Shown piece by piece: positions 21,471-45,509 of a stretch of 64,000 bases of DNA. A program made the position numbers and the translations under genes. Position 1 is the first letter of the stretch, and every line of letters starts with the position of its first letter. The notes below the pieces were generated by a model. The model was given only the letters and a program-made list of their open reading frames with translations, made no database searches and was not told the origin of the DNA. Where the stretch lies: the NCBI RefSeq assembly GCF_963676685.1, contig NC_092355.1, positions 16,802,001 through 16,866,000 of the forward strand, in the 5' to 3' direction. Source of the stretch: Mytilus edulis (lineage: Eukaryota).

Positions 21471-22538
21471 TTATTTTTTCTTTCTTTTTGACCATTGTAC
21501 ATCCCATGGCCATTGATTTTGGTTTGTTAAAGAAACGCCCGTTGGTAATATAGGTTGAAATCCATGTTCATTCATAAAATCTAATATAAACTTTCCCGAA
21601 TCTCTACTCTTATGTGTATGAAATTCCATCATCACGAAATGCACATTTACAGATCTAAAGAAATTTTCGGCTCCTTTTAAAACAGTATGCTCACTTCCCT
21701 CCACGTCCAGTTTAAGTACGGCCGATTTTATATCAATCACTTCTAACAAATCATCCAGTCTTATTGCTTGAATAGTTTCAAGGGCGCCAATGACAGTTTC
21801 ACTGTTATTCACGTTCCAAGAGCTCTTTTGCACAATAGTGTTGCCACCTATATTTGATGGAGAAGACTCGCGAACCACAACCGTCTCTTTCCTATCTGAT
21901 AACGCATTATGAATGATATACATATTTTTTGACAGGTTTCCTAATTTTGCGGAGGCACAAAGTCGTTCTATGTTATCTTTAAAACAGTCAATTGCTATCA
22001 CTTTATATCCTAACGAAGCTAAAGTTAGGGAATACACGCCAACGTGGGCGCCAATATCTATAAAAATTGCATCTGGATTCTGACTCATTGCTTCTACTGA
22101 TTTAAGTAAGTTGTTATCCTCCCACGATCCTCCATTTAGAAGAACACGTGATATATGAATGTCATTGTCCGGTGGATGTAAATATATAGGGGTTTTCTTT
22201 TTATGTTTTTTGTGCCGAAGATGTCCTAAAACAAAGTTTTTCTTCCTCATACATGCGCTGTCGTTGGTGAATGTCCATAACGAATTGTTGTACGAAAAAA
22301 TACCATTACTTCTTTCAAAAATTACAACATTCCTTGTAGTTAGGGGATTTGCCAAAACTGCTTTTTTGTCTTGTTTCATAAAATCAGTGTGAACATCATG
22401 CGGAGAATGAGTTATCATATAATTATTGACGTTCATCCCTGGTATTCCATAGTTTGTTTGAGTACGTCTTGTGCCCGACCAGCACAAGAGACAAATAAAA
22501 CTTAGTACAATTAGTATAATATATACTTTAGCTGACAT
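21471..22538 (-). CDS. FkbM-family (Methyltransf_21) SAM-dependent methyltransferase with N-terminal TM anchor, 355 aa
   Basis: Intact single coding exon from MSAKVYIILIVLSFICLLCW. Motifs D…ISRVLLNGGSWE, FIDIGAHVGVYSL, HNALSD, IRLDDL, LKLDVEGSEHTVLKGA, VMMEF. A splice acceptor (tttcAG) at 22586-22591 indicates an upstream UTR exon. Confidence 0.92.
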   Translation of the reverse strand: MSAKVYIILIVLSFICLLCWSGTRRTQTNYGIPGMNVNNYMITHSPHDVHTDFMKQDKKAVLANPLTTRNVVIFERSNGIFSYNNSLWTFTNDSACMRKKNFVLGHLRHKKHKKKTPIYLHPPDNDIHISRVLLNGGSWEDNNLLKSVEAMSQNPDAIFIDIGAHVGVYSLTLASLGYKVIAIDCFKDNIERLCASAKLGNLSKNMYIIHNALSDRKETVVVRESSPSNIGGNTIVQKSSWNVNNSETVIGALETIQAIRLDDLLEVIDIKSAVLKLDVEGSEHTVLKGAENFFRSVNVHFVMMEFHTHKSRDSGKFILDFMNEHGFQPILPTGVSLTNQNQWPWDVQWSKRKKK

Positions 22539-22879
22539 GTTGTGATAATTTTCAAAGTTTTTTTTCCATTTTTTTTTGTTGATATCTGAAATATAACAAA
22601 AAACGTTTAATTTTTGCAGCGATCGTATATGGTACTCCAATAGTATATGGTAATCCAATTGGCAATTATGTTATTAAATCATCAAAACATAACTAAATAT
22701 GCATTGACATATATACAGTAATGAACACTTATGGTCCTTTATCCCTGCGATACTTATACGTTTGGATAGCACAAGATCATGCTGTGTTACACTATTTATG
22801 ACGTCTTTCATTTGTGTTTTAGTCTTCCAATGAAAATTAAATTTCTGTTAAAATTGGAATTCATTAACGATAAATAACT

Positions 22880-23255
22880 TTAAAAAATGAACGAAAAACA
22901 AATATGTAACACATCAACAAACCACAACCACTGAATTACAGGCTTCTGTCCTGGGACATGCATATATATACAGAGAATTCTCGGGGTTAAACATGTAAGC
23001 GGGACCCCTCCACCTAACCTGGGAAAGTGGTGTAACAGTAAAACATAAGAACGAATTATAAAATTCCGTGGAAAAAGGCTTAACTCATCAGATAGAAAAT
23101 AGAAATGCATACAACAAAAACACGTAATGGACGTGGCCGGGTACTTGTGTGACCGACAACAACAAAAAACAACAAACTACAGATCTGAGAATACTTGCAG
23201 TTACTAACAACTAGTTCAAAGCCACTAACAACTTAAATAACAATCATGCATCTAA
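22880..23255 (-). repeat. Dispersed Penelope-associated 3'/pLTR-like repeat
   Basis: Shares TGTCCCA(A)G…CAG(G/A)AGCCT and AACATGTTTAACCCC cores with 31650-31700, 48590-48680 and 61116-61170. Confidence 0.65.
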
Positions 23256-23538
23256 ATTGTTTGTTTCTATATGATATACTTGGACGTTACGCACGGTTTT
23301 CGGTCTATTTTTCATTTGACCATTTCCTGATGCATCAGTAGGAGAAAAACAAATCAATTCTACTTTATAATTAAATAAAACCTGATTTTAATAAATTTAA
23401 TTTTAAGTATTATTACATAATTAGGCAAAAATTCCGTGTTCAAAATGCCGTTTTTGCCATGTAAGACGTAACAACAATTACTAACCATCCAAATATAAAC
23501 GAAGAAAAAATACCAACTACTGAATGGAATTCGATGAA

Positions 23539-24122
23539 GGAGTAGGTCCGGTAAGGGCCGATTTAGGGCTCAAATTTCAGGTTCATCTAACGAAAGTTTT
23601 TGGACACTGTGTAAACACGTTTACTTAGTGTCTATTTCAATTGATTCGAATAGTTTATGTGAAAGATTTAATCTGATTTATAGTCATTAAATACGCTCTG
23701 ATTCAAGCTTAAATATGAAAAATCTATCAAATATGCCAAAAAACGTCACTTTCCAATGGTTTTTGTCCAAAATGAAAGTGGCCGCATCCGTGTTCATCCT
23801 CACCCTTTATATATGTTTTGTATTATCATCAAATACAACTTACATTTCAATATTATGAATGAACACGAATGCGGCCACTTTCATTTTAGACGGAAACCGT
23901 CTAAAAATTAACCAAAATCCTAAAGTTTTGAAGATTTCAGTAATTTAGCATGACTTTATGATGCTAGTACACGATATTTGTGCATTGTATTAACAAAAAC
24001 AGTTCATATTTATGTAGCAGAAGCATTTTACTTTCCAAAACATAGCTTAAAGATAACATTTTCACAATTTTCTAAACCTCCTATATTTTGGGGCCAAAAA
24101 AGGGTCTTACTGAACCTACCCC
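23539..24122. mobile_element. Non-autonomous TIR DNA transposon (GGAGTAGG ends), copy 1
   Basis: TIRs GGAGTAGGTCCGGTAAG...CTTACTGAACCTACCCC; internal palindromic AAAATGAAAGTGGCCGCAT pair; a full-length inverted copy lies at 40886-41456. Confidence 0.85.
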
Positions 24123-25392
24123 TTTGTACAGGTGGGATATAATATGAACATATTCATGATGTGAAACGGTCACGATAAATATTATGTCAGTTCGCAATTT
24201 TGCGGTCATTTTTGAAATTCCATAGAGCTGTTAGATTCGAAAATTCAAGTATGCAAAAATGAAAGCAACCTATTCGATATCATACTATGTTCACATAAAT
24301 TATAGAAAAGGTTCGCCACCACTACATGAAAACGTGATTTTATTGAATTTTACGAAAATCTTTTTATTCCTAACATAACTTCTCTCATTTTATTTTTTTA
24401 AAGTATTTTCCGCGTCTTCCTTAATGTTACCTTAGAGCCATTGTTCAAGATTTTTTCAGTACCATGATAATTAAGGGTATTTTAAATTTGTGATAGACAA
24501 ATGAAATATAAAACAAATGATACTCCTGAAATGTGATTTGTTTTAAAGATTCGTTTAAGCCTTCAATGTTAAGGAAACACTAAATTTTTCATCAATTTCT
24601 ATCAAGTTGTCCGTGTCTCCCCAAAATGTTACCACGTCCAAATAGAACGGTTTTTTGCACGGAACGACAATGTAACGTAATATATTATAATTTTGTTTTC
24701 CATTGACTGAAAGTTTAGCATTGTGTTTTTAGCACTTGACCAGAGCCCTGGCATTTGTGTAATGATATATTTTTTGGAGATAATTTTTAATAATTTCTTT
24801 TAAAAGGTAATAAATCAACAAGAAAATTTGACTTCCATCAAAGTTTTGTAAACCATGTGCTGATCTTAAAGGCGTCGAAGCTTTTGATGAATAATAAGTT
24901 TTCTATAATATCGAACCTTTCAACTTTGGAACCTAGTAACATGTATGTGTCTGCTAGTACGAATGTTTGTTGTATACAATAACAGTCATTTCCACGCATC
25001 CGACAAGCTGACTCATGTGAAAAATACTTAATATTTGAATTCAAGGACTGTAGATCATTTTTTAATTTTAGATAAAATGAAAAATTCCAAACTGCCGTTT
25101 TCATTCAAAAGTCTGAGGATGAAACTGAAATTATAGACCAAGAAAAGAGAAGATATATAGTAGCTGTTGCTGCCATTGACCCGAACGACTATTATTGTTT
25201 TATTTACAAGTTTCTTGAAAGACACATAAAAGACCCTTAATTATTCTCAAACTGTAGTTAAAAAAATACAGCTGAAGGCGGGTTTATAACATTTATACTC
25301 TAAAAACCCTAAACAGCTTCGGTACTGGCTGTTTCCACGCGATGACTATGCCCAGACGTAGATACTTGGGGTGACGGAATCCTGAGCATTCA

Positions 25393-25987
25393 GGTAGATC
25401 ACAAGTATATATTTTTTGAGACAGAATTTTTTCATAATTTGCCAAAATGAAGATATTATTAATATGCTCTTTTCAAAAATTTAATAAAAAGTATGGGTCA
25501 CCGTGCTATTTTTCAAGCTATGGGTCGTTGAAAATTGCCAAAATTTGGTTAGTTTGTTCATGAAAAAACACATTAGTGTGCATAAAAAAAGTTCTATGAG
25601 ATAGAATTTTGAAATAAATTGTGAGAAGAAAGGTTTCATAATATGTTTTAAGAAAATAAAAAGAAAACATGGTGTGACCGAACTTGTTTTCTTGCTACAA
25701 GTAAAAATAAAAAATTTCCCTATTAGCCCAGTATAAATTTTGTACTAAAAGAGTTATTTCCCCTTAAATGGCTCATTTGAAAAAAATAATTTTTATACCA
25801 AAAAAATGGATATTTGATAAAATATTTTGAATAATACGATTAATTAACAATTTCTCTTCAAATAGAAAAAACAGTCTAACCATTGAATTGCACATCTGTC
25901 TCCAAATCTGCAGATTTAGGCAAATAATTAGACCGATTTTGTACTGCGATTGTGCAATCCAAGATGGCGGTATACCATGAATCTACC
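25393..25987. mobile_element. Kolobok-like MITE (GGTAGAT...ATCTACC, TTAA-type target)
   Basis: Short TIRs flanked by TTCA (left) and TTAA (right). Confidence 0.65.
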
Positions 25988-26945
25988 TTAAGCATTTTGC
26001 AACAATTGACATGCTTGGGCAGTGACAAATATTTGAAATCTTTACTTTCGTTAAGTTAAGATTGGGAGGAAAGAAAGTTTATTTAATTGTCAAAAGTATA
26101 CAATCAGTCATGTAAACAGCCTATTTTTTTAAATGAGTAGTTAAACATGAAAATGTCAGCTGTATTAAAAACGGTGCAAAGCTTTGACGTTTTGTACAGA
26201 AGTCGGTTGAAAATAATTGAAAACTACATCGAGTAACGTTACCATTTCTAAACCGAACACTGTGCGTAACCACTAACTACAGATCTGAGAATACTTGCAG
26301 TTACTAACAACTAGTTCAAAGGCACTAACAACTAAAATAAAAACCATGCATCTAAATTGTTTGTTTCTATATGATATACTAGGCATTCAATTTCTTTTGC
26401 TGAATAATTGCTTCATACGTTTGACGTTTTCTTGTATCTCTTTATTCGTATTATTCATTTAATTGGCGAATTAAAGATAAATAAATAAACCTTACCTTAT
26501 GATTGTATAGATCTGTATTATGGTATTTAGTTAAAATAATGAAACCTTACACCAGCGTTTAAACCATAAAGGAAATCAGTTTAACAATTGGAGCATACAC
26601 ACTTCTATTGTATTAGTAATGTTTTGTGAAGATAAAGTTACGTCTCTTTTCAATCGTAATAAAATGGTGAACAGTAAACTATTTTAAAATATTTTTAAAA
26701 GACTTATACCCACTGGATTTATAGTTTCCTCACATCTGATGTAAAAATAAGGCATAATATTAAGTCCTGTATATTTTACTGAAAAATTCCGATGGTAAGA
26801 AAAAAAATTCATCACAACCTACTTATTATTTTATAGGCCTGGGACTTATTTCACAAAAAGATCTGACGATAAAAGTACTCGTCAGTGTGATCATTTAAAT
26901 AATCATAGAGATGAATTTTGTGAAAAGATTGTTTGTGAAAAAATC

Positions 26946-27035
26946 CCAAGACGCGCTAATCGTCCACGAAGGACTCATCAGTGACGCTCGTATTAAAAAG
27001 GCCTAATACAGTTCATAAGTTGAAGAGTTAACAAA
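26946..27035 (-). repeat. Degenerate hammerhead-containing pLTR fragment
   Basis: Minus strand reads GAGCGTCA-CTGATGA-GTCC ttcgt GGAC-GATT-AGCGC-GTC; same family as 16471-16516. Confidence 0.65.
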
Positions 27036-27324
27036 ATCGTATCTAAAACAGGGAATTTTTAGCATGACAGTCAATTAATTTGGTCATGTACATGTCATCT
27101 TAATATCAAAGACTGAGATTTCACACCCCAGTTAGGAAAGGGAGATTACCATTGGAAAGTTTATGGCAACCACGTATTATTAAAGTATCAACACGCTTTT
27201 TATACTTGTAAAACATGATGCACGAAACAGAAATACTAAATGCGCTGCTTTTCAGCCATTCAAGCGACATTTATTAGTACTTTTAAGGTCAAAGTTGTAG
27301 AGTCGGAAATACAACGTGAGCTGC

Positions 27325-27450
27325 ACAGGGGTTGATCCAGCCATTTTAAAAAGGGGGGTTCCCAACCAAGGACTGCAAAAGGGGGGGGGGGGGGAGGGGG
27401 TCCAACTATATGTTCCCATGCAAATGCATTGATCGGTCAAAAAAAGTGGT
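27325..27450. mobile_element. Truncated CAG(T/G)GGCGGATCCAG-type MITE
   Basis: Reverse-complement similarity to 52151-52294 (GATCCAGCCATTT…, TCCAACTATATG…CCCAT…CAAATGCATTGATCG). Confidence 0.65.
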
Positions 27451-28316
27451 GTTTTTGAAGCAGCGTGTTTTTTTGATGTTCAAGCGATACAAATTTAGAC
27501 CGACAATGGATTATTCGTTAAATGGGTAGAAAAGACAACCTTCATGTATTTGTTGTGTTTTAAATAGACATCAAAGAACACGAATGAAAATAACACACAA
27601 TGTACAGAACCGGTTTGTTGTTTTACGGAGATGCAATAACAGTGTCAAATCTAACCCGGAGGTGATGTACATTCCCATTGCAATTCGGACATGATTGATA
27701 ATTTAGGTTTAATGTCCAGTGGCAAATGTTTCATTGATATTCAGTACACATTCATTCTAAACGTAACTTCAACCGGTGAATGGAAGAATCAACTCGACAA
27801 AGTCTTTAAATATAGAGCAAATTATCATCGATTTAAACTGACAATTTTATATTCAAACTTATAAACTCACTATTTTTTTTTATAATATCAGCATGCAATT
27901 CGGCAACTTACAGTCTTGCAAGTTTTTCAATCTAGATACGTTCCTGTATACATATAATGTAGATGACTAGAAATCATCATGATTTAAAAGTATTTCTTGA
28001 ATATCAAATGGGTGGGATGGTATCATCTGTTGTTTTTTGTTTTTTATATAAAAAAAGAGTAGTTCAAATACACGTGACGTCAACAATAATTCTATGAAGA
28101 ATTTTTTGATTACCACAACAGTTTTACCTTTGTCGGACTGAATGAGGTGTACAAATGTAGGAACATTGTTTCATTATCATTATTTAAAATAAATTCTTTA
28201 TTCTGCAATTACTGAGCATGCTGAGAGTACTACAAAGCAGTATTGTATTTCCGATTCCACTCACATTAAAAGCTGCCCACAATATATTAATCACGAAAAC
28301 CTATCTATCTAGTTAC

Positions 28317-28980
28317 CTAGATTAAAACTGACGTGGAAAGGTAACACATGGCCAGCGAAAGCTCTTTTATGAGAGCCCAGGTGGTTGTGTGGTCTAGCGG
28401 GACGGCTGCAGTGCAGGCGATTTGGTGTCACGATATCACAGTAGCATGGGTTCGAATCCCGGCGAGGGAAGAACCAAAAATTTGCGAAAGCAAATTTACA
28501 GATCTAACATTGTTGGGTTGATGTTTAGACGAGTTGTATATACATTATGTACACAGCCATGTATCACCATCATTGATGGCGATCCGATGGATACATCTGT
28601 TGTAGGGTTGTCACTGACTCAGACGTACTTATGAATATAATTATTTTCTGTGACTGTATCTTACATTAATTTGTAGGATCCTTTACTATAGATAATTTAG
28701 CTGATCTGTAACAATAACATCTTCATGCCTTATATATCATGTACTGTAGTACGTCGCTAGATTAAAACTGACGTGTAAAGGTAACACATGGCCAGCGAAA
28801 GCTCTTTTATGAGAGCCCAGGTGGTCGTGTGGTCTAGCGGGACGGCTGCAGTGCAGGCGATTTGGTGTCACGATATCACAATAGCATGGGTTCGAATCCC
28901 GGCTAGGGAAGAACCAAAAATTTGCGAAAGCAAATTTACAGATCTAACATTGTTGGGTTGATGTTTAGACGAGTTATATA
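28317..28980 (+). repeat. 1.5-unit tandem repeat (period 440 bp) containing a tRNA-derived, multi-hairpin Pol III-type module
   Basis: 28317-28540 recurs at 28757-28980 with about 5 mismatches. A-box-like TGGTCGTGTGGTCTAG and B-box GGTTCGAATCC occur in both copies (28375-28469, 28815-28909). Confidence 0.85.
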
Positions 28981-28982
28981 GT

Positions 28983-29003
28983 TATATATATATAGAGAGA
29001 GAG

Positions 29004-29037
<34 letters not shown>
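28983..29037. repeat. (TA)n(GA)n microsatellite
   Basis: Directly visible. Confidence 0.95.
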
Positions 29038-29040
<3 letters not shown>

Positions 29041-29754
29041 AGTACTGTAAGACTTTTTTAAAATACTTTTGTATCCAACTCTATATTATTTATTTTCTTT
29101 GATTTTTTTTCTTTGTCCAATTTTTCTTAAGTTTGTTACTATAACTCTCTATTGTGTAAACTGTATACAATACATAATACACAGCAGGTAATGTGATAGA
29201 ACTAACACACGTATTTCCGTAAACAAATCGTTTCCTCTCCGTTGAGATATGTGTTTTATTCATCAATATTTATTTCCGGATAAACCTTCGAAAATAAATA
29301 ATATTTTTGATGACACAGACCTTCTTCAGATTGATATGATACACACTTAAGAAATTGCTTAAAATCTGAGGTGAGCAGATATGTGCTATTTGAAAACAGG
29401 TTACACGCCATTATTCTGTTATTCCGACAGCCCATTAGTCCGACAGCCCATTGGTCCGACAACCCATTAGTCCGACAACCCAACAGTCCGACAACCCATT
29501 GCTCCGACAGCCCAATACTCCGACAACCCATAAGTCCGACACTTATCAAGTCAATTATCAGGGTAAAATATTTTGTGTCTGTCTGTATTATTACGTAATA
29601 GCATATATTTCAAGAAATAACTTCGTATATATTACATAAGACTAAGGTAGTTCGAATACTTTCTATATATTCAATTCGAAATCTGTATATAGAATAGAAC
29701 AGAAAAGAATATTTCATTTTCCAAATAACACAGTCTATAAAGAGCATACAAATC

Positions 29755-30198
29755 ATGACCAACCAGTAATCATGGTAATGGTGCGAGCTACTGGTGATAC
29801 CCCCGCCCAAATATTTCGGTAAACAGGAAATTGTTGAGATGTGAATCTAAAAAAGCATCACACAGTATAACTGAATTATATAAACCTTGAAACCAAATTT
29901 CAGAAATCATTGTATTGTAGTTTCTGAGAAAAATATGACGAAAATGTTCAACTTAGCTCTCATGTAAAAAGTGTCCGGTAAACAGAAAGTTGTTGAGTTA
30001 AGAATCTGAAAATGCATCACGCGATAAACCCGACTTCAATAAACCCTGACACCAATTTCAGAAATCCTTGTAATGTTTTTTCATGAAAAAGAAGCAACGA
30101 AAATATTCACGGGGCGGACGGACGAACTGACAGATGGACGGACGGTCAGACAGAGGTAACACAGTATACTCCCCACTTTTACGAAGCGGCAGTATAAT
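29755..30198 (-). mobile_element. HINE-like element nested in the foldback element
   Basis: (GGAC/AGAC)n microsatellite at 30112-30152, terminal hairpin-like CCCCACTTTTACGAAGCGG, and two ~160-bp internal units (CCGGTAAACAG(G/A)AA…). Confidence 0.6.
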
Positions 30199-30603
30199 GA
30201 TTGGGTCAACATTAAGACATTACAATACTAATTTATACTAGTTATATTTATTTCACCATAAGCCTCAGTCACAATATGAGCCAAAACAAAATAGGAAAAA
30301 AAGAACTAACACATTGATATGAAACAACAGTCAGTATCAAGACCTGTACTACATAATTCAAATGAACTAATAATAAAATCATAATTTTTCCAATAAAAGT
30401 TAAGTTTTCTTGTGTTAACATCGAAGATTAATCATGTTTGTTTATCTAACTTTTTAAAGTTCTGACAAGTGCTAAAAATATGCTGAAAGAGTTCCTCACT
30501 CAAATTATTATGAAGGGAGCATTCGATTGAAAAATGACGCTCATCCTAAACCTATCAGCTGTACAATACGATTTTTTTAGTATCTGGCATTTTCTATTCC
30601 TAA

Positions 30604-32289: not shown

Positions 32290-33814
32290 TAATGTAATGG
32301 GTGAGCACCGATTCTAAATTAACATATGAACTACCTTTCTTAAAATCAATGATATCTAAATATTTTTCTCCTTGAAACATAATGAAAAATAAGTGTCAAG
32401 TATGCCACAAAACACATACTGAACTAAGTTTTTACAACTAGATAATTTGAGAAAGACACAAGCGTGAAATTTTCCCACATTGTCTTAGATTTTTTACTAG
32501 TTGTTATTGGCTTTTATATTGCACTCGTTCTATTTTTAAAAGCAGTCATTTTGAGTCATTTTGAGTTGACTGTTTGTTTCTTTGTCATATACAGTCCCTG
32601 AATATCACTTTTCCTCATGAATATTTAAATAGAAGTTGCCGAAATGTTCATTTCCGTCATACTTGTTTTTCGTAATAAGTTTTGTTGTAAATCATAAGTC
32701 CTGCACCTCCCCCAACCATTTTTAAATAATAAAGGAGGGATATTTTTCCTAGATTTTGAAATAAGCTTGGGATATAAAATTGGTATCCCTACAAATATAT
32801 TGAGTGTCATCTCTCAGACTATGTCTGATCTATCGTTTTTGGAAGTGACTTGTAGTTGTCTCAGTATTTCGTGGATTCACATTCCCGAACATGAAACCGT
32901 ATTCATAAAAAACACCAGGCGAACTAGAACATCACAGACTGACAGTTGACAAACAAACGACGAAATGTAAACAAATAAATACGTAAAACGAAAGAGGGTC
33001 GAATGTAAGGACTTAACAGTAGCAATTAGCATGTGTATCAACTCCAATATAATGAGACAACTATCCCGCATGGAAAGAATAATAGGGATCAAAACGAACA
33101 ATTCCAAATATTGAAGAGAACCGAGTTGGTCTTTTTAAAGAAAAAATACCAATACACACAAGACAGATGCATTGTCGGAGTAATGGGCTGTCGGAGTAAT
33201 GGGCTGTCGGAATAGTGGGCTGTCGGAGTATTGGGCTGTGGGAATAGCGGGCTGTCGGAGTAATGGGCTGTCGGAATAATAGGCTGTCGGAGTAATGGGC
33301 TGTCGGAATTATGGTTGTCAGACTAATGGGATGTCACCTGAAAACAAACTAATGCATGGAGGCAAAATATCTCTATGAATAAGAGACGAAATGTATGCCT
33401 TATGAACGGCAAAATACGACAAAAATACACACAAAAATAATACAACATAAAAAGCTAAAGATTGTGCTACACCTTTTGTACACGAGCCATAGTCAAAATT
33501 AATATGACGTCTTAAAAGTCCATTTTATTTTTTGCTTTGACGCCTTTCAGCAACAGTTGACATGTTTGATGTAAGTCGTCAAAGAAAAAAATACAATAGC
33601 CTTTAAACTTCAAGACATTATTTAAATCATTTTGATTACACAAACCCCACCAAAACAAGGGTACATGTAACTAATATAACCAATTCAGTATAAAGTAACC
33701 CCTGGCAAAGTTGTGTTTTCTATAGGCTTGGAGAGGCATGGCACCTAGACCGAGATTACACTGAATCAAACAGCTGTTTTGCCAGGCAAGCTGGGGTCGT
33801 GGCCAGCTTGGCTG

Positions 33815-33885
33815 GTAAAAGAGATGTTGGACGCAGGTGTGATGCCAGACAACATCATTTGTACAGGGCACCGTATTGTAACCAA
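33815..33885 (+). mobile_element. Tyrosine-recombinase (Crypton-like) C-terminal remnant
   Basis: EMLDAGVMPDNIICTGHR resembles the L..AGV....I...TGH(R/K)S box II motif of Crypton-type YRs; short and isolated. Confidence 0.4.
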
Positions 33886-34892: not shown

Positions 34893-35830
34893 TACATGTT
34901 ATCATTGTTATACATGTTATCATTGTTATACATTGTTATATCATTGTATATGGTATATATATTCTTGAAATCTTTGAAAACATAGAAATATGTACAAGTT
35001 GATTGCTTGTTTAATTTAGAGCATTCATTGATCAATGGCATAATATATCTCAATGATTGGTGTAATATACATGTATATTACAATTGCTTTAAAAGTATGT
35101 TGGGGGAAAACCATGGTATACATACGCGTGTACATGTATTATCTGCAATTGATGTTGTACTATTCTTTAATAATTAAATATGTAGCTCAGCTAGAATCCA
35201 AAGGAAAGAAGACAGAGCTCTGACAGTTATAGTACAACATATTCATTGTCATGTTATTCCATGGGCCATAGCTGAAGCTCCATCCCTTTTTGAACAATGT
35301 TCGTCTCTGAAATATTTGGGAAACTGAAAAATCTAAACAGTCAGGGGACTTACAAGTACTTAAATGAGTGATTTTCCAAATCACTGATTCAAGTAACATT
35401 ATTTCCACAAAGGTTGGAAGTTAGAGTTGTCTTTCTTTAATAATCACCTATTTAAGTAGTACAAATTAATCACTAGAAGAAGTGATTTAATTTTATAGTA
35501 GCTTTAAATATACAATATTAATGATCCCGGGACTAATTATGTTTCTAAAATTATCAGAACCAACATCTGTGTTGATAGGATGACCATGCAGGTCATTTCA
35601 GGTGATGACCTTGTACTGAATCTAGGATAATGACATAAAAATCACTTGTTTAAGTATCATACCTCAATTTCCTTCCCAAAAATCACTTCTTTAAGTATCA
35701 TTGTTTTAATAACCCCCACTAATTTCAACACCCCCGAACAGTGAAATTTTTATCGTGAACAGTAGAATTTTATTACATAATCTGAAAGATGAAACCTTGA
35801 ACTTCACAGGAAAAATACTCCCACTGCTGG

Positions 35831-37147
35831 CAGTCAGGGGTACTACTTGTACAAGTTATTTTTAATTACTTGAAGAAGTAATATTAATATACTTATATAA
35901 GTAAATTTGTAGGATACTTATACAAGTGAATTTTATTTACTTGTATAGGTAAAAAAAATATCGGCTGAGTTATGTCCCTTAGACATTCAGATTTTTTTAC
36001 TTGTAGAAGTAAAAAAGTCATCCTATCTTCTCTTATTGAATTCTTATGATTTCTTTGCTCTAATAGAATTTTAAATTATTTGCCCTTTGCAGATGTCTTT
36101 ACTAATCATTTTAGTGTAATTTCGTGGACAATGAAGAACCCATTTGTCTGTTATCTTCAGAACACTGCTCATTTACAAGCCCCAAAGGAGCAATTTTGAA
36201 GGCCTTGGCAAATACTTTAAAAGATCTTTGCACAATCAGTTTCTTTGTTGAATTAATGAGATGAAACATTGAACACTTATAAAAAAAATTGAGCAAACAT
36301 GGGAAAAACCATTAAAGGCATAAATTTACATCTCAAAACTTGAGGACTTTTGTGGAATTGTAAGAAAAATTTACTTATACGAGTAAATTTTTGAGAAAAT
36401 TAAGGTATGTGTACTTGGAAAATTGCATATTCAACTCTATCTTCAAGTAAGTCTCTATATTGATGTGATCCAAACAGGCCCTGTGATGTTTTCTTGATGC
36501 TCAATTTAAAATGAAGGCTTTATTTGTATAGTGCAACTACCTCATTGTAATAACTCAAGTCATAATGAATAAAAGTTCTAAGGACAATATCATCATGATC
36601 ATATTGATATGTTCTTCCAATAGAAATATTTTCCATGTTTTTATGTGGATTTTTTGTCTCAAAACTTGAGAATTTTTGTGGAATTGTAAAAGAATTTACT
36701 TAGATACAAAAGATATAAAATTATATAATTAGTTGGAATTTATTTAAACATTATAATTAACATGCATGACATGATTAACTTATATAACATGTATAAGTAT
36801 ATTTTTTTACTTCTTGAAGTTCTTCAAGTAATCATGGTAAATAAAGATTACTTGTTCAAGTACTGCATACCTGCCAACTGTCATTATTTGCGGGAGATTT
36901 CCCCATGGAGGCTCCCAAATTGAAATTTTGAAAGAGCAATTTTGTCCACAATATGACAATTTAAACAAAACAATCAATTTCACAATGATTTTAGGCTTAT
37001 AAAAGTATGAAGAAGCCAAAAAACAACATTAAAATGTATTTGAAGCCCCCCCTTGAAGGTTTTTTAGGATCATGACAGCCATCTTGCACTCAAAACCCCC
37101 ATGGGCATTTTGAAAAGTTGGCAGGTATGAAGTAGTACCCCTGACTA
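35831..37147. mobile_element. CAGTCAGGGGTACTACTT-TIR element
   Basis: AGTCAGGGGTACTACTT (35832) / AAGTAGTACCCCTGACT (37130-37146); internal TACTT.TA.AAGTA palindromic repeats. Confidence 0.7.
36866..37129. mobile_element. hAT-like MITE with CATACCTGCCAACT TIRs (uninterrupted copy)
   Basis: Perfect 14-bp TIRs; imperfect 8-bp TSD AAGTACTG/AAGTAGTA. Confidence 0.88.
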
Positions 37148-37326
37148 AACGTACTGGAGGAAAATTCTGAAGGTTTTCAATTATCTTTTCAGAAATCCTG
37201 CATGGATAGTAGATTGTAACAGGTCAGAAAATTGATTGCAAAGTCATCAGTATCAAGATGTAAAGATTTAGAATGATACCTTGAACCTGTTGAAGATTAT
37301 TTAAGGACTCTCAAATGATAGCCAAA

Positions 37327-40300
37327 ATGAGGTATGTAAAATCAGTTAACATGGTTTCTAAATTTAAATGTATGTTTGAACCTACATTTTACTCTGGATT
37401 CAGATACATGTATACAAATACTGTTTCAGAAAAGGGAGAAGGTTTGGAACCATTAAAACGTTTAATCCCGCTGTAATAGTTTGCACCTGTCCTAAGTCAG
37501 GAATCTGATGTTCAGTAGTTGTTTGTTTATATGGTTCTTGAGTGCTTCTCGTTTTTTTATATAGATTAGACTGTTAATTTTTCTGTTTGAATGGTTTTAC
37601 ACTAGTAATTTTTGGGGGCCTTTATAGCTTGCTGGTGTGAGGCTAGGCTCTGTGTTGAAGACCGTACCTTGACCTATAATAGTTTACTTTAATAAATTGT
37701 GACTTGGATGGAGAGCTGTCTCATTGACACTCGAGCTCATACCACATCTTCCTATACCAAATAATTTTACAAGTTACATGTACATGTATGTGTTATTTGC
37801 ATTATGATATTGACAAAAATAAAAGGTTCGTCTAGTTTGCAAATGTTATACATGTAGGACTCAAATCTATGGTGAGTGCCAAATCTGTGGCAGATCCCTA
37901 ATCTATGGCAAATGTAACGTCATGCCATCCCAAATCTATGGCAGATTTTTTACAATCCTAATCTATGGTAAGTTTTGTAGTTTCCTAGTCTTTGGCGGAT
38001 TTTTGTTGTTTCCAAATCTATGGCAGATGTTGTGCAAATGGAAAACAATGCAGTACATATACGACTAATGATTTGTCTTAAAGAAGTTGACATGAACGAC
38101 AACGGGAGCATGTCTATAAAGCTTTGCAAAATAAACAATCCATAATGGTCAAATCGTGAACAATTCGTAAATGATGAATTCATATACCTTCCAGATTTCG
38201 AGATTGAAATGGTGTGTCCCGTAAAAATAAGCATTTTCTAATCTGTGCATGGTACCTGTTTAACCTATTCATAAATCCAACTAGTTAGTCCCTTAACAAA
38301 CAAAACGGAAGTTTTTTCTCAAACAAAAATGATAAATTATAAAAGTGAACAGTTTTAGTTTTCAAATAATATTTATTTCATTGTTGATACATTTTTTAGC
38401 TCACCTGGCCCAAAGGGCCAAGTGAGCTTTTCTCATCACTTGGCGTCCAGCGTCCGGCGTCCAGCGTCTGTCGTCGTCGTCCGTCGTTAGCTTTTACAAA
38501 AATCTTCTCCTCTGAAACTACTGGGCCAATTTTTACCAAACTTGGCCACAATCATCATAGGGGTATCTAGTTTAAAAATTGTGTCCGATGACCCGGCCAA
38601 CCAACCAAGATGGCCGCCATGGCTAAAAATAGAACATAGGGGTAAAATGCAGTTTTTGGCTTATAACTCAAAAACCAAAGCATTTAGAGCAAATCTGACA
38701 TGTGTAATATTGTTCATCAGGTCAAGTTCTATCTGCCCTGAAATTTTCAGATGAATCGGACATTTCGTTGTTGGGTTGCTGCCCCTGAAATGGTAATTTT
38801 AAGGAAATTTTGCTGTTTTTGGTTATTATCTTGAATATTATTATAGATAGAGATAAACTTTAAACAGCAATAATGTTCAGCAAAGTAAGATCTACAAATA
38901 AGTCACGTGACCAAAATGGTCAGTTGACCACTTTAGGAGTAATTGCCCTTTATAGTCAATTTGTAACCATTTTTCGTCAATCTTAGTAATCTTTTAGAAA
39001 AATCTTCTCCTCTGAAACTACTTGGCCAAATTTAACCAAACTTAGCCATAATCATCATTGGGGTATCGTTAAAAAAATGTGTCCGGTAACTCGGCCAACA
39101 AACCAAGATGGCCGCCATGGCTAAAAATAGAACATGGAGGTAAAATGCAGTTTTTGGCTTATAACTCAAAAACCAAAGCATTAAGAGCAAATCTGACAGG
39201 AAGTAAAATTGTTGTTCAGGTCACGATCTATCTGCCCTGGAATTTTCAGATGAATTGGATAATCGGTTGTTAGGTTGCTGCCCCTGAATTGGTAATTTTG
39301 AGGAAATTTTGCTGTTTTTTTGTTATCTTGAATATTATTATAGATAGAGATAAACTGTAAACAGCAATAATGTACAGCAAAGTAAGAACTAAAAATAAGT
39401 CACTATGACCAAAATAGTCAATTGACCCCCTAAGGAGTTATTGCCCTTCATAGTCAATTTTTAACAATTTGAAGATTTTCAATAACATTTTCCACAGAAA
39501 GTACTGTTATAGATAGAGATAATTGTAAGCAGCAAGAATGTTTAGTAAAGTAAGATCTACAAACACATCACCATCACCAAAACACAATTTTGTCATGAAT
39601 CCATCTGTGTCCATTGTTTAATATTCTCATAGACCAAGATGAGCGACACAGGCTCTTTAGAGCCTCTAGTTTTTATTGGAAGATGATTTAAATCAAATTG
39701 GTATCCGGTAATTTTTTCTTTCACCTTAAAAACTTTGCCAGCCGTAGATAACTTATTTTCTTAAAATATCATGTACTGAAAAAGAGGTGCCAGTGTTCAT
39801 CGCAGGGTTTGGACGGTACAGCACATTCTGTCCCTCCTCCGGATAATAGGTCACAACTTCCTGTAAACCGTCCTCAAATTGTTTTCGAGGGACATATCTT
39901 CATCGGGAATGGTGCTAAAATCTATGTGTTTTGCCATCGTTAGCGGCGTTGACGATGTAATATAGCGTTATTCAATTGTGACGTTATGTGTTAAATCTGC
40001 CATAGATTTGGAGAAAACAAAAATCTGCCATAGATTTGATTAGTTTAACGTTTGTAACGTCACATTTACCATAGATTAGGAATCTGCCATAGATTTGGAA
40101 CTGGCCATAGATTTGAGTCCTACATATATATCAGATGATCTTTAATCCATGCTAAATAAAAGATATGTATACAGCTTAAACATAACATGTGTATCATAAT
40201 CATGATAAGGATTATAGCAAATTTAGAAAAAATGTCCAAAATTGAAACAAACTATTGATTAAATATCTGTGAACATGGTGAACAACAACACGACATTGTC

Positions 40301-43300
40301 TTTTATTTTGAAATTACAAACAAAAGAAACATTAAGATTTAAATAATTTACATGTATCATGTGTATAATTTAGTTTATTCTGTTTACCAGTTATCATGGT
40401 TATATATGGAATGAAATTGTGTTTAAAAGTTTAAAAACATTGATCATCAATTCATGATTATCATGATTGTTTAGATTAATATTGCTTAGAATTGAGGATC
40501 TAAAAAAAATACTGAATGTTTTTTATCTACAGGTATAGAGGAAGGTTATGTCTGAAATATCACCGACCATTTTGGAAGTTATACCTGAAGTACCTGTGTG
40601 CAGCTTGTGTCATATCCTTCACCTCAATGTTCTGTGTCACTCTAAGTGAAGGTAAGAAGTGGGGTCTCACTGAATGTCGGTTATAGTCATGCTTCATTGA
40701 TTCCATATATATATAATAATTTTGACCTTTTTTATCTTACGTTTTCCTTAACAAACAAATGATTTTGTTCCCTTAAATTTACAGATTGGACAATCAATGC
40801 ATTTGAATGGGGACATATAGTTGGAACCTCCCTGGCTGGATATGCCCCTGGATGAAAAATCTAGAGAGAATAATTTCCTGCCAAAGGAATAGGTTCAGTA
40901 AGACCCCTTTTTGGCCCCAAAATATAGCAGTTTCACAAAATAGTTAAAATGTAAACTGTTAGTTATCAATTGGAAAGTAGAATGCTTCTTGAATCTTCTT
41001 CATAAATATGACAATACAATGCACATATATTGAGTACTAGCATCATTAATGCCAAATTACTGAAATCTTCACAATTTTAGCATTTTAGTTAAATTTTTGA
41101 TGGATTCTGTCTTATATGAAAGTGGCCACATTTGTGTTCATTCTTAAAATTGAAATGTAAGTTGTATTTGATCATAAAAAACAACATATTTAAAGGTTGA
41201 GGATGAACACGGATGCAGCCACTTTCATTTTTGACAAAAAAACATCTGCAAAGTGACATTTTTTGGCATATTTGATAGATTTTTCATATTTAAGCTTGAA
41301 TCGGAGAGTTTTTAATGACTAAATCTGTAAAAATCTTTCACATAAATTAATTGAATCAACTGAAATAGACACTTAAGTGTTTAAAAAGTGTCCAAAATCT
41401 TTCGTCAGATGAACTTGAAATTTGAGACCATAATCGGCCCATACAGGACCTACTCCTTTTCAAGGGCCTATATCTTGAAAACAAGCACATGAACACTTAA
41501 TTGTTTTCTGTTTGTATAATTCCTTTATGTACTATCAATTTACATCATTCTTTGTAAAAAGCTTAACACTTGTTAATTTGAAACAGAGTAGCAAACATTC
41601 TTATTGGAATTTATTTTTATGTTTTCAGATTTAGTGGATTGGTTTGCTTCATTCCATACAAAAATTGATGTAAACAGAATTGCACAAGAATTTCAAAACG
41701 ATAAAACAAGTGAGTGGAAATAGCAACTGAAAATAAAATAATGTATTTTACACTTGGTGCATTAACATTTATGTAACATTTTCATCATGTGTTAATGAGG
41801 TTCAAAAGAGAGAGCCGGGGTGTAGTGGTTAGCGCATTGGACTTCTAACACAAACTGAGGTTCCTGGTTCCATCCCTGTTCTGCGACTCTCCCTTAACAC
41901 CACTTGTGACTTGAGAGTATGGTCTTGAGAAACAAATGATAGTGCCTAATAAGGGGACAATAAATGACTGATCTGTGTTAAGAGAGAGACATATCTCTTG
42001 CACCCTTGTAGATTTCCAAAAAGAGCAGGCTAATGCTGCTATACACATGATACACTAGGTATTAAGTAACTGACAAAGTGAAGAAAATGTGAAAATTTGA
42101 TTGATTCAAAAATGACGTTTCCAGCCATGTCTGTGCATTTAATCATGAACCTTTCAACCAAAGCTTTTCACATTTAACTATGTTGTTACTGATGACAAAA
42201 TCGAGGTAAAGGTAAATAATGGCAATTTTGACTTTTACCGTTCATAAGTTATAGGTCTTGAAAGATTGAAAAATGGTGTTTCTAATTGTGTCCGTGCTTT
42301 TGCTCATGAACCTTTCAACCAAAGCTTTTCAAATTTAAATATGTTGTTACTGATGACAAAATGATGGTCAAGTTTAATAATGGCGATTTTCACTTTTCAT
42401 GTTCAGGAGTTATGGTTCTTAATATATTGAAAAATGGTGTTTGAAGGTATCAAGTCAGGTTGTTGCATTTACTAATGAACCATTCAACCAAAGCTTTTCA
42501 AATTTTAAAATGTTGTTACTTTTGACAAAATAGAGGTCAAGTTTGATATTGAACTTTTACCATTTAGGTGTTTTTGTCCTTGTGATATTGACAAATGCCA
42601 GGCAGGACATAAATAAATGTTAAAAAATCTGGTTTACTGTCATTCTGATTCTTGTAAAGATATACATTTTTTTTTACTATCATTTTTTACATTTTCATTT
42701 TAGTTTATGAAAATACAACAGCAGCAGATGAAATGTTCAAGAAAGTCAGAATACTTTGTCTTGTAATAACAACAAGTGGCCATTTAAATAAACAGATTCC
42801 AGTTGTAAATGCTACATGGGGAACAAGATGTAATAAAATTCTTTATGTCATGTGTACAGACAAAAAACAACCAGACATATTAAATTCCTGTGATGTGACG
42901 GAATCAAAAAGTCATTTGACTCGAAAAGTTAGATTCATGTTGCGATATGTGTATCTTCATTATTTAAAGGATTACGATTGGATATTAAAGGCAGATGACG
43001 ATACATATGTGATCATGGAGAATTTAAGATTTTTATTATCATTTCATAATCCTGATTTACCTGGTTACCTAGGTTACCATTTCAATATGCATTTAAAACA
43101 AGGTTACATGAGTGGTGGGGCTGGGTATGTGATTAGTAGGTCAGGGTTGAAAAAAGTTATCGAGGTAGCATTTAAAGAAAATGGCTGCCCACCAGACGGA
43201 AAAGATGAAGATTTAGATATTGGTAAATGTCTACAGATGGCGGGTGTACCTCCGCTTGTATCATATGACAAATATGGACGTGAGACATTCCATACTGATA

Positions 43301-45509
43301 AAGTGTGGCAACATCTTTATGGAACTGTTCCCCGATACCTGAAAAAATATAGTTGGAATGGGGTAAATGATGTAAGTTTACATGTTGAATGTTGAAATAT
43401 TTATTGAAATTTTAGAATTTTCTGACTAGATTTAGATGAGACAATAAAAAGTCCTGGTACTTGCATACCTACATGGTAATGTCAACATGTTAATGTGCTG
43501 TCATGGCTGTGATTGTTTTTTGTAGGTTTTTTAATTTTTTAATGTCTTTTATTGAACATATGTCATGTATGTACAGTATGTGTTATATTTTGAATATATT
43601 CAATCCAATGTGTAAAGCTAAATCAAAATACCTATTGACAGTATTGCACATTTTGCTTTTCATGCTTTTTGAATGAATATCTTTAATTGAACATAAGTTC
43701 AGTATGTGTTTCTCAGCTCATAGTTTTTAATTTAATTTCGGATAATGGGAGATAACTCATACCACCTCAGTGAAATATATATAAAAAGATCAATGAAAAA
43801 TGTTTTTTTAACATTTTTCTGGGTAAGCTGCTTTTCAGGTGTGTAGCTATGGGCAGGTAACTATTTTAATTTGATTTTGTTGTTGGCCTTTTGTATGTTA
43901 ATAATGTAACAACTCAAATATTTCTATAAAAACATAACAAACATTTACAATGATCTTTTGTATCATTTTTTAAAGGTTTTTCTGTGCTCTTACGTTCATT
44001 TCTTGTCTAAAACATGTTACAATGTTGTTGGTCAAGAAAAATCCTTACCTTCCTACATAGCCCTACAAGGGATGCTCAAATAAGAAATTTGTTAACAGTG
44101 GCCTAATTTTTAATGATACAATGTAGTATAACATGTATAATAAAAATCAGTTCACTTTTAGTTCTTAGAACTTCTAGTTAAGAATTTGTTTTCTCTTGTT
44201 TCAATTTTTGCAATGATTGTCTATTATATACATATCAAAGACCATAATTTGACCTCTTGATGCTTTTTTAGATATTTGTTGTTTTTATAGACATCGTAAG
44301 TGTAGACATCGTTTGATTGCCTTAGATTTGAACACCATGAACACTGCACTGTTTTATGTTTTAAAAAAATTGTTAATATATATTGTCATGATTGTACACA
44401 AAACAGATTCGGTTTCCTGTCTGAGTCTTGTATCTTAGTGGTTTTTAGTCCCCTAGGGACAAGTTAAATGGGATTTTAGGTTTGCACTCTGTCTGGCTGT
44501 TTGTCTGTCCTTCAGTCCAGCAAATCAGTTTTCCATGCTTTTTATTCTTTATGCTTGAAGATATTGATTCGATATTTGGTGTATTGTTTTATCATGTTTA
44601 TCATGACCAAATAAAGATCAAGATTAAATTTTGCTCTGGTCGGAATATTTTGTACAGAGTTGTTGTCCTTTGACTTAGAAAATTCACTAAAATATTCAGT
44701 TTCCTGTCCAAGTCTTGTATCATTGTGGGTTTTAGTCCCCTACCAACCAGATGAAGGGGAATTTAGGTTTGCACTCTGTCTGTCTGTTTGTCTGTCCATC
44801 TGTCATTCTGTCTATCTTTCCGTTTGTCCAGCAAATCTGTTTTCCACTCTTTTTTGGAGTATTATTTTATCATGACAAGTTACAGATCAAGTTAAAATTT
44901 TGTCCTGGTCCGATTATTTTATGCAGACTTATGGTCTTTTGACAAAAAAATCACTAAAACAATCAGGCTCAGCCTTTTTTTCTCATGCTGAAAGATATTG
45001 ATTTGAAAACTGGTATATAGTTTTATCATGACAAGTTACAGATCAAGTTAAAATTTTGTTTCGGACTTACTTATGATTTTGTGCAGAGTTCTGGTAATTT
45101 GACTTACAAAATTCCTTAAATAATCAGTTTTCAAAACTCCTTTTCATCCTGATTGAAGATATTGACTTGATATTTGTTATACATGTATATTTAGTTGACA
45201 CCATGACAAGATCAATGATGTTATAGATCAAGTTCAAATTTTGTTCCAAAACAATGGATTTAACCAGTAGGGGGCTTTGTATTGGCATGCATTACTCACA
45301 GAATGCTTTTTAAATCTTAATCCATTGTCTTCTTTATTTTACAGGGAGGAGGTTGCTGTAGCCAGTTTTCTGTTACATTCCACCACGTTAATCCACAGAC
45401 AATGTTATTGATGCATCAAATGTTATATAGAACAAGTGTCTATGGACGACAGACTCCTACAGATATATCAGATATGTTCCATATGGCTAAAGTGCTACCA
45501 TTACTTTAA
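37327..45509 (+). CDS. C1GALT1: Glycoprotein-N-acetylgalactosamine 3-beta-galactosyltransferase 1-like (core 1 T-synthase, GT31), 345 aa, 5 coding exons
   Basis: Exons 37327-37331 (gccaaaATGAG|gt), 40533-40651 (TM segment YLCAACVISFTSMFCVTL), 41629-41709, 42704-43371 and 45345-45509 are phase-consistent GT-AG, total 1038 nt. Motifs KVRILC, TWGTRCNK, DWILKADDDTYVIMENLR, GYMSGGAGYVIS, EDLDIGKCL, CCS…TFHHV. The first micro-exon is the least certain. Confidence 0.92.
37852..40125. mobile_element. TIR element with repeated AATCTATGGCA subterminal motifs (in C1GALT1 intron)
   Basis: Perfect terminal ATGTAGGACTCAAATCTATGG / CCATAGATTTGAGTCCTACAT, with multiple mirrored AATCTATGGCAGA motifs at both ends. 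Confidence 0.85.
38393..39673 (+). mobile_element. HINE/Helentron-like element with ~500-bp internal duplication
   Basis: 5' TAGCTCACCTGGCCCAAAGGGCCAAGTGAGC hairpin; (GTC)n; AAAATCTTCTCCTCTGAAACTA at ~38499 and ~38999; 3' GATGAGCGA plus hairpin AGGCTCTTTAGAGCCT; inserted in a T-run. Confidence 0.88.
40886..41456. mobile_element. Non-autonomous TIR DNA transposon, copy 2 (inverted relative to 23539-24122)
   Basis: Reverse-complement colinear with 23539-24122. Confidence 0.85.
41812..42047 (+). mobile_element. tRNA-derived SINE (decayed)
   Basis: Head GCCGGGGTGTAGTGGTTAGCGCATTGGACTTCTAA… (A box) and GGTTCCATCCC (degenerate B box), followed by a non-tRNA body. Confidence 0.65.
42120..42590. 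repeat. ~165-bp tandem repeat, 3 degenerate units
   Basis: ATGAACC.TTCAACCAAAGCTTTTCA recurs at ~42146, ~42306 and ~42475. Confidence 0.75.
44410..45310 (+). mobile_element. Degenerate HINE-like element(s) with ~150-bp internal repeats
   Basis: Duplicated start TTTTAGTCCCCTA (44443, 44730); (TGTC)n; CATGACAAGTTACAGATCAAGTT repeats; 3' TAGGGGG. Confidence 0.65.

What the first reader, a model, noticed from the sequence alone, without database searches (positions are those of the whole stretch)
21471..45509. Divergent pair of Golgi-type enzymes: FkbM methyltransferase plus T-synthase-like galactosyltransferase, a candidate glycan O-methylation module
Seen: the FkbM ORF has type II membrane topology (short N-tail, one TM, stem, C-terminal catalytic domain), the same layout as the adjacent head-to-head C1GALT1-like gene, and no other recognisable gene lies between them. 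Established: molluscan N- and O-glycans carry O-methylated hexoses including methyl-galactose, FkbM-family proteins are O-methyltransferases, and to my knowledge the responsible animal glycan methyltransferases have not been identified. Inference: this enzyme may methylate Gal added by the neighbouring GT31 enzyme. Caveat: both families are expanded in molluscs and the start codons are ~15 kb apart, so adjacency may be chance.
Basis: partly seen in the sequence, partly recalled or inferred. Interest (0 to 1): 0.7.

Follow-up and report, generated by a model that had tools for sequence, protein, structure and literature searches.

The report
Mussel membrane-anchored candidate glycan methyltransferase
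This mussel gene encodes a predicted membrane-anchored methyltransferase, likely one of the still-unidentified enzymes that add methyl groups to sugar chains; it probably faces its galactosyltransferase-like neighbour by chance, but a second group of such methyltransferase genes in the same genome lies beside sugar-transferase genes about ten times more often than expected, which gives better candidates to test.

Summary
Both genes are real, intact and head-to-head, with start codons 14,777 bases apart, and are linked in three other Mytilus assemblies. The FkbM gene (355 aa, PF05050, TIGR01444 over cut-off) has an N-terminal hydrophobic helix and intact core residues, so a luminal SAM-dependent O-methyltransferase, probably for glycans, is plausible. 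The two-gene module is not supported: 0 of 15 other clusters of its subfamily lie within 100 kb of a surveyed glycogene (0.55 expected); one such neighbour among 16 clusters has chance 0.43; the neighbour is a divergent T-synthase paralogue with 4 of 5 acceptor-site residues changed; CpG content differs sharply between the two genes. Following up gave a stronger lead elsewhere in the genome: the Star-like FkbM subfamily (7 of 18 clusters, 0.74 expected) and DUF268 genes (5 of 11, 0.47 expected) sit in mixed GT31/GT10/GT11 clusters, unlike control families, echoing C. elegans glycoclusters. The window gene's syntenic copies are only 78-85% identical to one another, against 93-99.7% for the neighbour. 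The scan noted the family-level idea before on other DNA (Naegleria, green algae). No activity is shown.

The parts
21471..22538 (-). FkbM-family methyltransferase, single coding exon, 355 aa
   Evidence: exact protein is in the public collection
22479..22529 (-). N-terminal hydrophobic helix, residues 4-20 (signal anchor or cleavable signal peptide)
   Evidence: hydropathy; model helix 3-21; contigs of runs X1 and X4 join it to the catalytic part
21555..22058 (-). PF05050 domain, residues 161-328, with D161-x-G163-x-x-x-G167 and K276-D278-E280-E283
22585..22587 (-). Splice acceptor (polypyrimidine-CAG) 47 bases above the ATG: the 5' exon lies elsewhere
   Evidence: sequence; no spliced contig seen
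26490..26496 (-). Best donor-like site on the minus strand (AAG|GTAAGG); candidate end of the FkbM 5' exon, inferred only
   Evidence: lies in a non-repeat segment
22588..37314 (.). Stretch between the coding regions: one third repeats, no protein match
32879..33004 (+). Candidate first (non-coding) exon of the C1GALT1-like gene, inferred
   Evidence: contig of run X4 at 32879-33101, donor-like site at 33004 and fall of CpG o/e after 34 kb
33726..33836 (+). Exon-like segment with AG/GT ends, 36 open codons, no Pfam match; possible UTR exon
37315..37331 (+). C1GALT1-like coding exon 1 (ATG)
40533..40651 (+). C1GALT1-like coding exon 2 (hydrophobic stretch, residues 26-44)
41629..41709 (+). C1GALT1-like coding exon 3 (stem)
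42704..43371 (+). C1GALT1-like coding exon 4 (GT31 catalytic domain, DDD, catalytic Asp)
45345..45509 (+). C1GALT1-like coding exon 5 (CCSQ in place of CCSD; stop)

Best explanation
The window's FkbM gene encodes an intact class I methyltransferase with an N-terminal hydrophobic helix that likely places it in the secretory pathway, where it likely transfers a methyl group from SAM to a sugar hydroxyl of a glycan, and its position next to the C1GALT1-like gene is probably incidental. Shown: ORF, family, fold, conserved core residues, hydrophobic helix, linkage within Mytilus, no enrichment of its subfamily near glycogenes. Inferred: luminal location (helix, four N-glycosylation sequons, C96 in 95% of relatives), catalytic activity, glycan substrate (mussels make O-methylated N-glycans; a sister FkbM subfamily and DUF268 co-cluster with glycosyltransferases in this genome), and independence from the neighbour. 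The acceptor sugar is unknown.
For: Family and fold: (class I Rossmann fold; FkbM structure 2py6 Z 12.2, rmsd 2.9, 163 aligned, tied with RNA and O-methyltransferases). Core residues at 95-100% in 143 aligned relatives are all present: D126, S130, D161, G163, G167, G231, K276, D278, E280, E283, E305, W343. N-terminal hydrophobic stretch in 19 of 21 paralogous ORFs and 95 of 121 full-length relatives among 150 hits. Need for such enzymes: 4-O-methylated N-glycans on the M. edulis extrapallial protein (PMC8699351, passages); glycan methyltransferases unidentified in C. elegans in 2023 (PMC7614267, passages and section 17). Family-level guilt by association: Star-like FkbM 7 of 18 clusters within 100 kb of a glycogene against 0.74 expected, controls 1 of 18 against 1.00. 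Incidental adjacency: 0 of 15 other window-type clusters, 0.55 expected; 1 of 16 has chance 0.43; CpG o/e 0.84-1.10 over 20-34 kb against 0.23-0.47 over most of 34-50 kb.
Against: Nothing here shows activity or substrate. The clustering signal belongs to another subfamily, not to this gene's. None of 29 long relatives is fused to a glycosyltransferase. The fold search does not favour sugar O-methyltransferases. No solved relative by sequence (0 hits). The closest paralogue also lies here, 33 kb to the left, and 3 of 7 C1GALT1-like clusters have some FkbM gene within 75 kb, so a glycocluster origin of this pair is not excluded. With only 0.55 links expected, 0 of 15 shows no enrichment but is no proof of depletion; multi-exon glycogenes are under-detected.
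Confidence: 0.42

Rival explanations
1. The first reader's module: the two genes form a functional pair, the FkbM enzyme methylating the galactose (or other sugar) added by the neighbouring GT31 enzyme; the locus is a small glycocluster like those on C1, C2, C7 and C9.
For: Real mixed glycoclusters exist in this genome. The canonical T-synthase on C2 is also head-to-head with an FkbM gene, of the Star-like kind. Snail O-glycans carry 4-O-methyl-Gal on GalNAc (PMC6272458, passages).
Against: 0 of 15 sister clusters near a glycogene; chance 0.29-0.43. Linkage within one genus is expected; the unrelated ORF at 54.5 kb travels along too. Different CpG profiles and very different rates of change. 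Oyster O-glycans are described without methyl groups. The neighbour's acceptor is unknown.
Confidence: 0.15
2. The protein is an active secretory-pathway or membrane methyltransferase with a non-glycan substrate (small molecule, lipid, protein carboxyl group).
For: The name-giving FkbM methylates a polyketide hydroxyl (recalled; FK506 papers in search listing). Best structural matches are RNA and small-molecule methyltransferases, all tied. This subfamily shows no link to glycogenes.
Against: Golgi-enzyme-like layout across the family; 3 of 29 long relatives pass the whole-protein cut-off of PF05575 RfbT, an O-antigen sugar methyltransferase (recalled).
Confidence: 0.25
3. The domain is used without catalysis, as a trafficking chaperone (as described for Drosophila Star, recalled) or as a secreted or surface sugar-binding protein under host-pathogen selection.
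For: Possible signal-peptide cleavage site; syntenic copies only 78-85% identical, some broken or without the helix in their gene models; a source names the sister subfamily 'protein Star-like'.
Against: SAM-binding and acidic core residues are near-invariant across 143 relatives and intact here; 4 of 5 listed differences of a diverged version in run X4 are at third codon positions.
Confidence: 0.15

Closest known systems
Bacterial FkbM family (PF05050 / TIGR01444; structure 2py6)
   Same: Passes both cut-offs; same fold (Z 12.2, rmsd 2.9 over 163 residues).
   Different: Only 17% identity to 2py6; has an N-terminal hydrophobic helix, stem, sequons and conserved Cys; best prokaryote-like matches in metagenomes are at most 35% identical. 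Substrate unknown.
Drosophila Star and 'Star-like' proteins (type II membrane proteins with PF05050; role of Star in Spitz trafficking recalled)
   Same: Same Pfam domain and N-terminal anchor; the genome's second subfamily is named 'protein Star-like' by a source and by an Atlas cluster.
   Different: The window protein is in another subfamily: the two protein searches share no hit; it scores 80 bits on TIGR01444 against 25-28 for the two Star-like proteins tested.
C. elegans glycoclusters (PMC7614267, section 17 read)
   Same: Mixed clusters of glycosyltransferases of different CAZy families with putative methyltransferases and DUF268; the same mix is found here on C1, C2, C7 and C9.
   Different: Here loose clusters over 50-200 kb in a 1.37 Gb genome; the window's own pair is not shown to be one; function unproven in both.
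Core 1 beta-1,3-galactosyltransferase, C1GalT1 / T-synthase (PDB 7q4i; PMC9065035; mollusc enzymes PMC11005171)
   Same: E 9.4e-55 to 7q4i; DDD, Y218 and catalytic D255 kept.
   Different: R152K, Y213H, W300Y, Y325H and CCSD to CCSQ; a paralogue on C2 keeps all of them. One oyster paralogue with the conserved motifs was inactive on GalNAc.

Membership tests
FkbM family (PF05050 / TIGR01444) | Score over the curated cut-offs | tested here: met
   64.6 bits vs 22.7; 80.2 vs 37.7
FkbM family (PF05050 / TIGR01444) | Class I Rossmann fold with D-x-G-x-x-x-G motif | tested here: met
FkbM family (PF05050 / TIGR01444) | SAM-dependent O-methyl transfer | not testable with these tools
   needs an assay
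Golgi type II glycan-modifying enzyme | Single N-terminal hydrophobic segment, stem, C-terminal domain, 300-600 aa (criterion of PMC7614267) | tested here: met
Golgi type II glycan-modifying enzyme | Uncleaved signal anchor rather than signal peptide | tested here: inconclusive
   3-residue N-tail, 17 hydrophobic residues, possible cleavage after S21; no predictor run
Golgi type II glycan-modifying enzyme | Golgi residence and glycan substrate | not testable with these tools
   needs localisation and assay
Star-like FkbM subfamily | Found by a Star-like query in the genome | tested here: not met
   not among 39 hits; Star-like genes not among 31 hits
GT31 C1GALT1-like (neighbour) | Fringe/Galactosyl_T domain, DDD motif, catalytic Asp | tested here: met
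Canonical T-synthase (neighbour) | Acceptor-site residues R152, Y213, Y218, W300, Y325 (Drosophila numbering) | tested here: not met
   1 of 5 kept (Y218); W300A is inactive in PMC9065035; W-to-Y is milder than W-to-A, so activity is not excluded
Canonical T-synthase (neighbour) | CCSD motif | tested here: not met
   CCSQ; PMC11005171 shows the motif is dispensable
Canonical T-synthase (neighbour) | Gal transfer to GalNAc-Ser/Thr | not testable with these tools
   needs an assay
Functional gene pair / glycocluster | Linkage repeated among paralogues above chance | tested here: not met
   0 of 15 other window-type clusters within 100 kb of 307 surveyed glycogene hits, 0.55 expected
Functional gene pair / glycocluster | Linkage conserved across species | tested here: inconclusive
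   3 other Mytilus assemblies by accession order; no named non-mytilid member found in the gene's clade, so deeper synteny was not reached
Functional gene pair / glycocluster | Shared bidirectional promoter or co-expression | tested here: inconclusive
   no start of transcription mapped; CpG profiles differ

The most novel reading that the evidence does not exclude
Mussels keep loose glycan-biosynthesis gene clusters in which membrane-anchored FkbM (Star-like, DUF268-fused and window-type) and DUF268 proteins are the long-sought animal glycan O-methyltransferases, acting on the sugars added by neighbouring GT31, GT10 and GT11 enzymes; the window gene is one of them and persists as old, deeply diverged alleles, a blood-group-like polymorphism of glycan methylation.
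Probability: 0.2. Interest if true: 0.85.

Novelty: new variant of a known kind. Interest (0 to 1): 0.5.

Why it matters
O-methylated glycans of molluscs and nematodes are described as targets of innate defence and antibodies (PMC6272458, passages), yet the enzymes were still unidentified in C. elegans in 2023 (PMC7614267), and six searches here turned up no identified animal enzyme; most subscription journals are not in the library. This work does not find the enzyme, but ranks candidates: Star-like FkbM, DUF268 and DUF268-FkbM fusion genes inside mixed glycosyltransferase clusters come first, the window gene second. Each can be tested with one recombinant domain, SAM and a panel of acceptors. 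It also shows mixed glycogene clusters in a mollusc, which one search did not find in print.

Tried and rejected
Bidirectional promoter: not shown; four runs (RNA by guess, none on record as RNA) hold contigs over the FkbM coding region at depth 3-15 but no splice joint at 22585 was listed, and repeats swamped the tables; the 5' exons remain unmapped. A third gene between the pair: none found. A second close copy in this assembly: none; the DNA search gives only the 69% paralogue. Fusion to a glycosyltransferase: 0 of 29 long relatives. Substrate from structure: top matches tied. Segmental duplication of one FkbM-C1GALT1 pair: rejected, the C12, C2 and C9 pairs use different FkbM subfamilies or clades. 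Held-out families alone (GT92, GT14, sulfotransferase 2) do not confirm the Star-like enrichment: 1 of 18, 0.21 expected, p 0.19. A search for Star with methyltransferase gave one listing that I did not read. Two key papers (Staudacher 2012; Wohlschlager 2014) were not held, so what they say on enzymes is not checked. No supplement was read; Fig. S15 of PMC7614267 may name the methyltransferase families in the worm clusters. No complex was predicted, as no binding is claimed.
Full report
1. The observation. The window lies on contig C12 of a 1.37 Gb genome; homologues place it in Mytilus. The minus-strand ORF 22538-21471 encodes 355 aa with PF05050 (E 1.6e-17) and TIGR01444 (80.2 bits, cut-off 37.7). 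Residues 4-20 are its only strongly hydrophobic stretch, and it has four N-x-S/T sequons. A model from a 19-sequence alignment (pLDDT 80.2) has helix 3-21, a disordered stem 21-72 and a class I methyltransferase fold. The plus-strand gene has five GT-AG exons from 37315 to 45509 giving 349 aa, as in public models. The ATGs are 14,777 bases apart, and no protein match lies between them.

2. The FkbM gene. It belongs to a large eukaryotic subfamily: 31 hits in this genome, which I grouped into 24 positions and 16 clusters, and 713 clusters at E 1e-30 or better among the 50% representatives. 19 of 21 paralogous ORFs and 95 of 121 full-length relatives (of 150 hits) have an N-terminal hydrophobic stretch. 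All residues conserved at 95% or more in 143 aligned relatives are present, so it looks like a working enzyme. The Atlas puts its nearest clusters in rotifers, diatoms and streptophytes. Structure does not name a substrate: the top rows (Z 12.7-12.0) are tied among RNA methyltransferases, O-methyltransferases and the bacterial FkbM structure 2py6. None of 29 long relatives is fused to a glycosyltransferase; three pass the whole-protein cut-off of PF05575 RfbT. Contigs from four runs of four studies, RNA by guess only, cover the coding region at low depth, two of them including the helix-coding part.

3. The neighbour. It is one of 10 C1GALT1-like genes in 7 clusters. Against Drosophila C1GalT1 (7q4i) it keeps DDD, Y218 and the catalytic D255 but has R152K, Y213H, W300Y and Y325H (alignment, numbered from the S73-Q388 construct; residues tested in PMC9065035, passages). 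The paralogue on C2 keeps all of these. Scallop and oyster relatives share most of the window's changes, so this is an old, divergent paralogue with unknown acceptor. PMC11005171 (passages and section 5) shows both that a divergent mollusc paralogue can be an active T-synthase and that one with the conserved motifs can be inactive.

4. Is the pairing more than chance? Accession order shows the pair in three other Mytilus assemblies, which a single genus would show for any neighbours. I mapped PF05050, two FkbM queries, seven glycosyltransferase families, one sulfotransferase family, DUF268 and three control families (Mab-21, C1q, 7tm_1) in the genome and placed each cluster at random on its own chromosome. 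Window-type clusters: 1 of 16 within 100 kb of a glycogene (the window itself; 0.55 expected, p 0.43), 0 of 15 without it. CpG o/e is 0.84-1.10 over 20-34 kb and 0.23-0.47 over 34-50 kb apart from one repeat-filled bin; in molluscs low CpG o/e marks methylated bodies of broadly expressed genes (recalled), so the two genes look differently regulated. The module is therefore not supported.

5. What the test turned up instead. The other FkbM subfamily, named 'protein Star-like' by a source, behaves differently: 6 of 18 clusters within 100 kb of the first five glycosyltransferase sets (0.56 expected), 7 of 18 with all sets (0.74 expected; no placement of 4,000 reached it), and 1 of 18 for 445 control hits (1.00 expected). 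DUF268 genes not fused to FkbM give 5 of 11 (0.47 expected), controls 0 of 11. Fetched DNA confirms mixed clusters, for example C1:28.03-28.18 Mb and C1:81.94-82.01 Mb, and the canonical T-synthase is itself head-to-head with a Star-like gene. Linked genes fall in three separate clades of a short, weakly resolved tree (79 columns), so there are at least three independent cases, not seven. Limits: the pattern was noticed before it was tested; the null is uniform placement, with 9 of 14 chromosome lengths estimated; controls are the best 147-150 of 510-1,754 candidates; multi-exon genes are under-detected; hits on small contigs and one weak PF05050 hit (C2:76.92 Mb) were dropped; the Star-like set includes broken copies, and one linked case (C11) is a broken copy beside a GT10 fragment; the three families added later do not confirm the Star-like signal on their own (1 of 18, p 0.19), though they do for DUF268 (2 of 11, p 0.009). 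PMC7614267 (section 17) reports the same mix, with putative methyltransferases and DUF268, in C. elegans, function unproven.

6. Unexplained. Four near-complete copies of the window gene from other Mytilus assemblies are 78-85% identical to it and to each other, with M. coruscus no further away than two M. galloprovincialis copies are from each other (80%), while the neighbour is 93-99.7% and the paralogue 90-99% identical. This assembly has one copy. Old allelic lineages or haplotype-specific paralogues would both fit; these gene models also start after the helix, which I could not check at DNA level.

7. Mechanism and comparison. Most likely the protein enters the secretory pathway, binds SAM in the lumen and methylates a sugar hydroxyl (inferred at each step). 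Mussels make such glycans: 4-O-methylated N-glycans on the M. edulis extrapallial protein (PMC8699351, passages). Methyl-Gal on O-linked GalNAc is described for snails, while oyster O-glycans are described as simple core 1 types (PMC6272458, passages). A putative SAM transporter gene, samt-1, is named in C. elegans. It works like a Golgi glycan-modifying enzyme by layout, is a member of the FkbM family by test, is not a Star-like protein, and is not shown to form a module with its neighbour. Earlier scan notes raised the same family-level idea on other DNA and a DUF268-fucosyltransferase link in bacteria; they are leads, not support.

8. Verdict. Observation partly confirmed; interpretation partly supported: plausible for the family, probably wrong for this pair. 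Interest 0.5, mostly for the ranked, directly testable candidates in the mixed glycogene clusters and for the odd divergence of this gene.

Noticed in passing
G000:C1:28,029,701-28,180,728 (L167-L183): Five glycogene-like ORFs with N-terminal hydrophobic stretches in 150 kb: beta-1,3-GT (PF01762), Star-like FkbM, GT10 fucosyltransferase, DUF268-FkbM fusion, beta-1,3-GT; more GT31, GT10 and sulfotransferase hits within 600 kb.
   Followed up: partly
G000:C1:81,942,341-82,062,118 (L195-L201): beta-1,3-GT, GT10 (in two frames), GT92-like ORF, Star-like FkbM, GT11 and a DUF268 hit with stops.
   Followed up: partly
   Followed up: partly
G000:C9:4,352,264-4,550,695 (L070-L082): C1GALT1-like gene 72 kb from an array of four DUF268-FkbM fusion ORFs and one broken copy.
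   Followed up: partly
G000:C7:577,481-630,804; C2:707-776 kb; C1:76.7-77.1 Mb; C1:99.47-99.63 Mb: Further mixed clusters: two GT10 with Star-like FkbM; GT31, GT92, GT11 and GT10 with DUF268. GT10, GT11 and GT31 also cluster with each other above chance.
   Followed up: partly
window 21471-22538 and P0001-P0004, P0159, P0160: Syntenic copies from other Mytilus assemblies are 78-85% identical to each other, with no species pattern, while the neighbour is 93-99.7% and the paralogue 90-99%; run X4 holds a near-identical and a 10% diverged version. Old alleles or haplotype-specific paralogues.
   Followed up: partly
G000:C3:50.69 Mb, C3:50.80 Mb, C11:53.25 Mb, C11:53.26 Mb: Single open frames of 604-970 codons with two or three window-type FkbM domains in tandem.
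   Followed up: no
G000:C12:16,789,442-16,790,407 (L055): Closest paralogue (44%), 320 aa with N-terminal hydrophobic stretch, tail-to-tail 33 kb left of the window gene, with a Mab-21/cGAS-like ORF between.
   Followed up: yes
window 14413-18719 (+): HSP70-family (HSPA12-like, label recalled) gene with a frame change near 18,340-18,397.
   Followed up: no
window 54562-55815 (+): 417-codon ORF without Pfam match, conserved in Mytilus as an uncharacterised protein and fused to the C1GALT1-like model in one M. coruscus prediction.
   Followed up: no
window 58700-60031 (-): Two ORFs without Pfam match, the first with a signal-peptide-like start; probably exons of one secreted protein.
   Followed up: no
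window 7104-7942 (+): Reverse-transcriptase-like fragments in three frames (label from motifs recalled; no Pfam hit for the one ORF tested).
   Followed up: no
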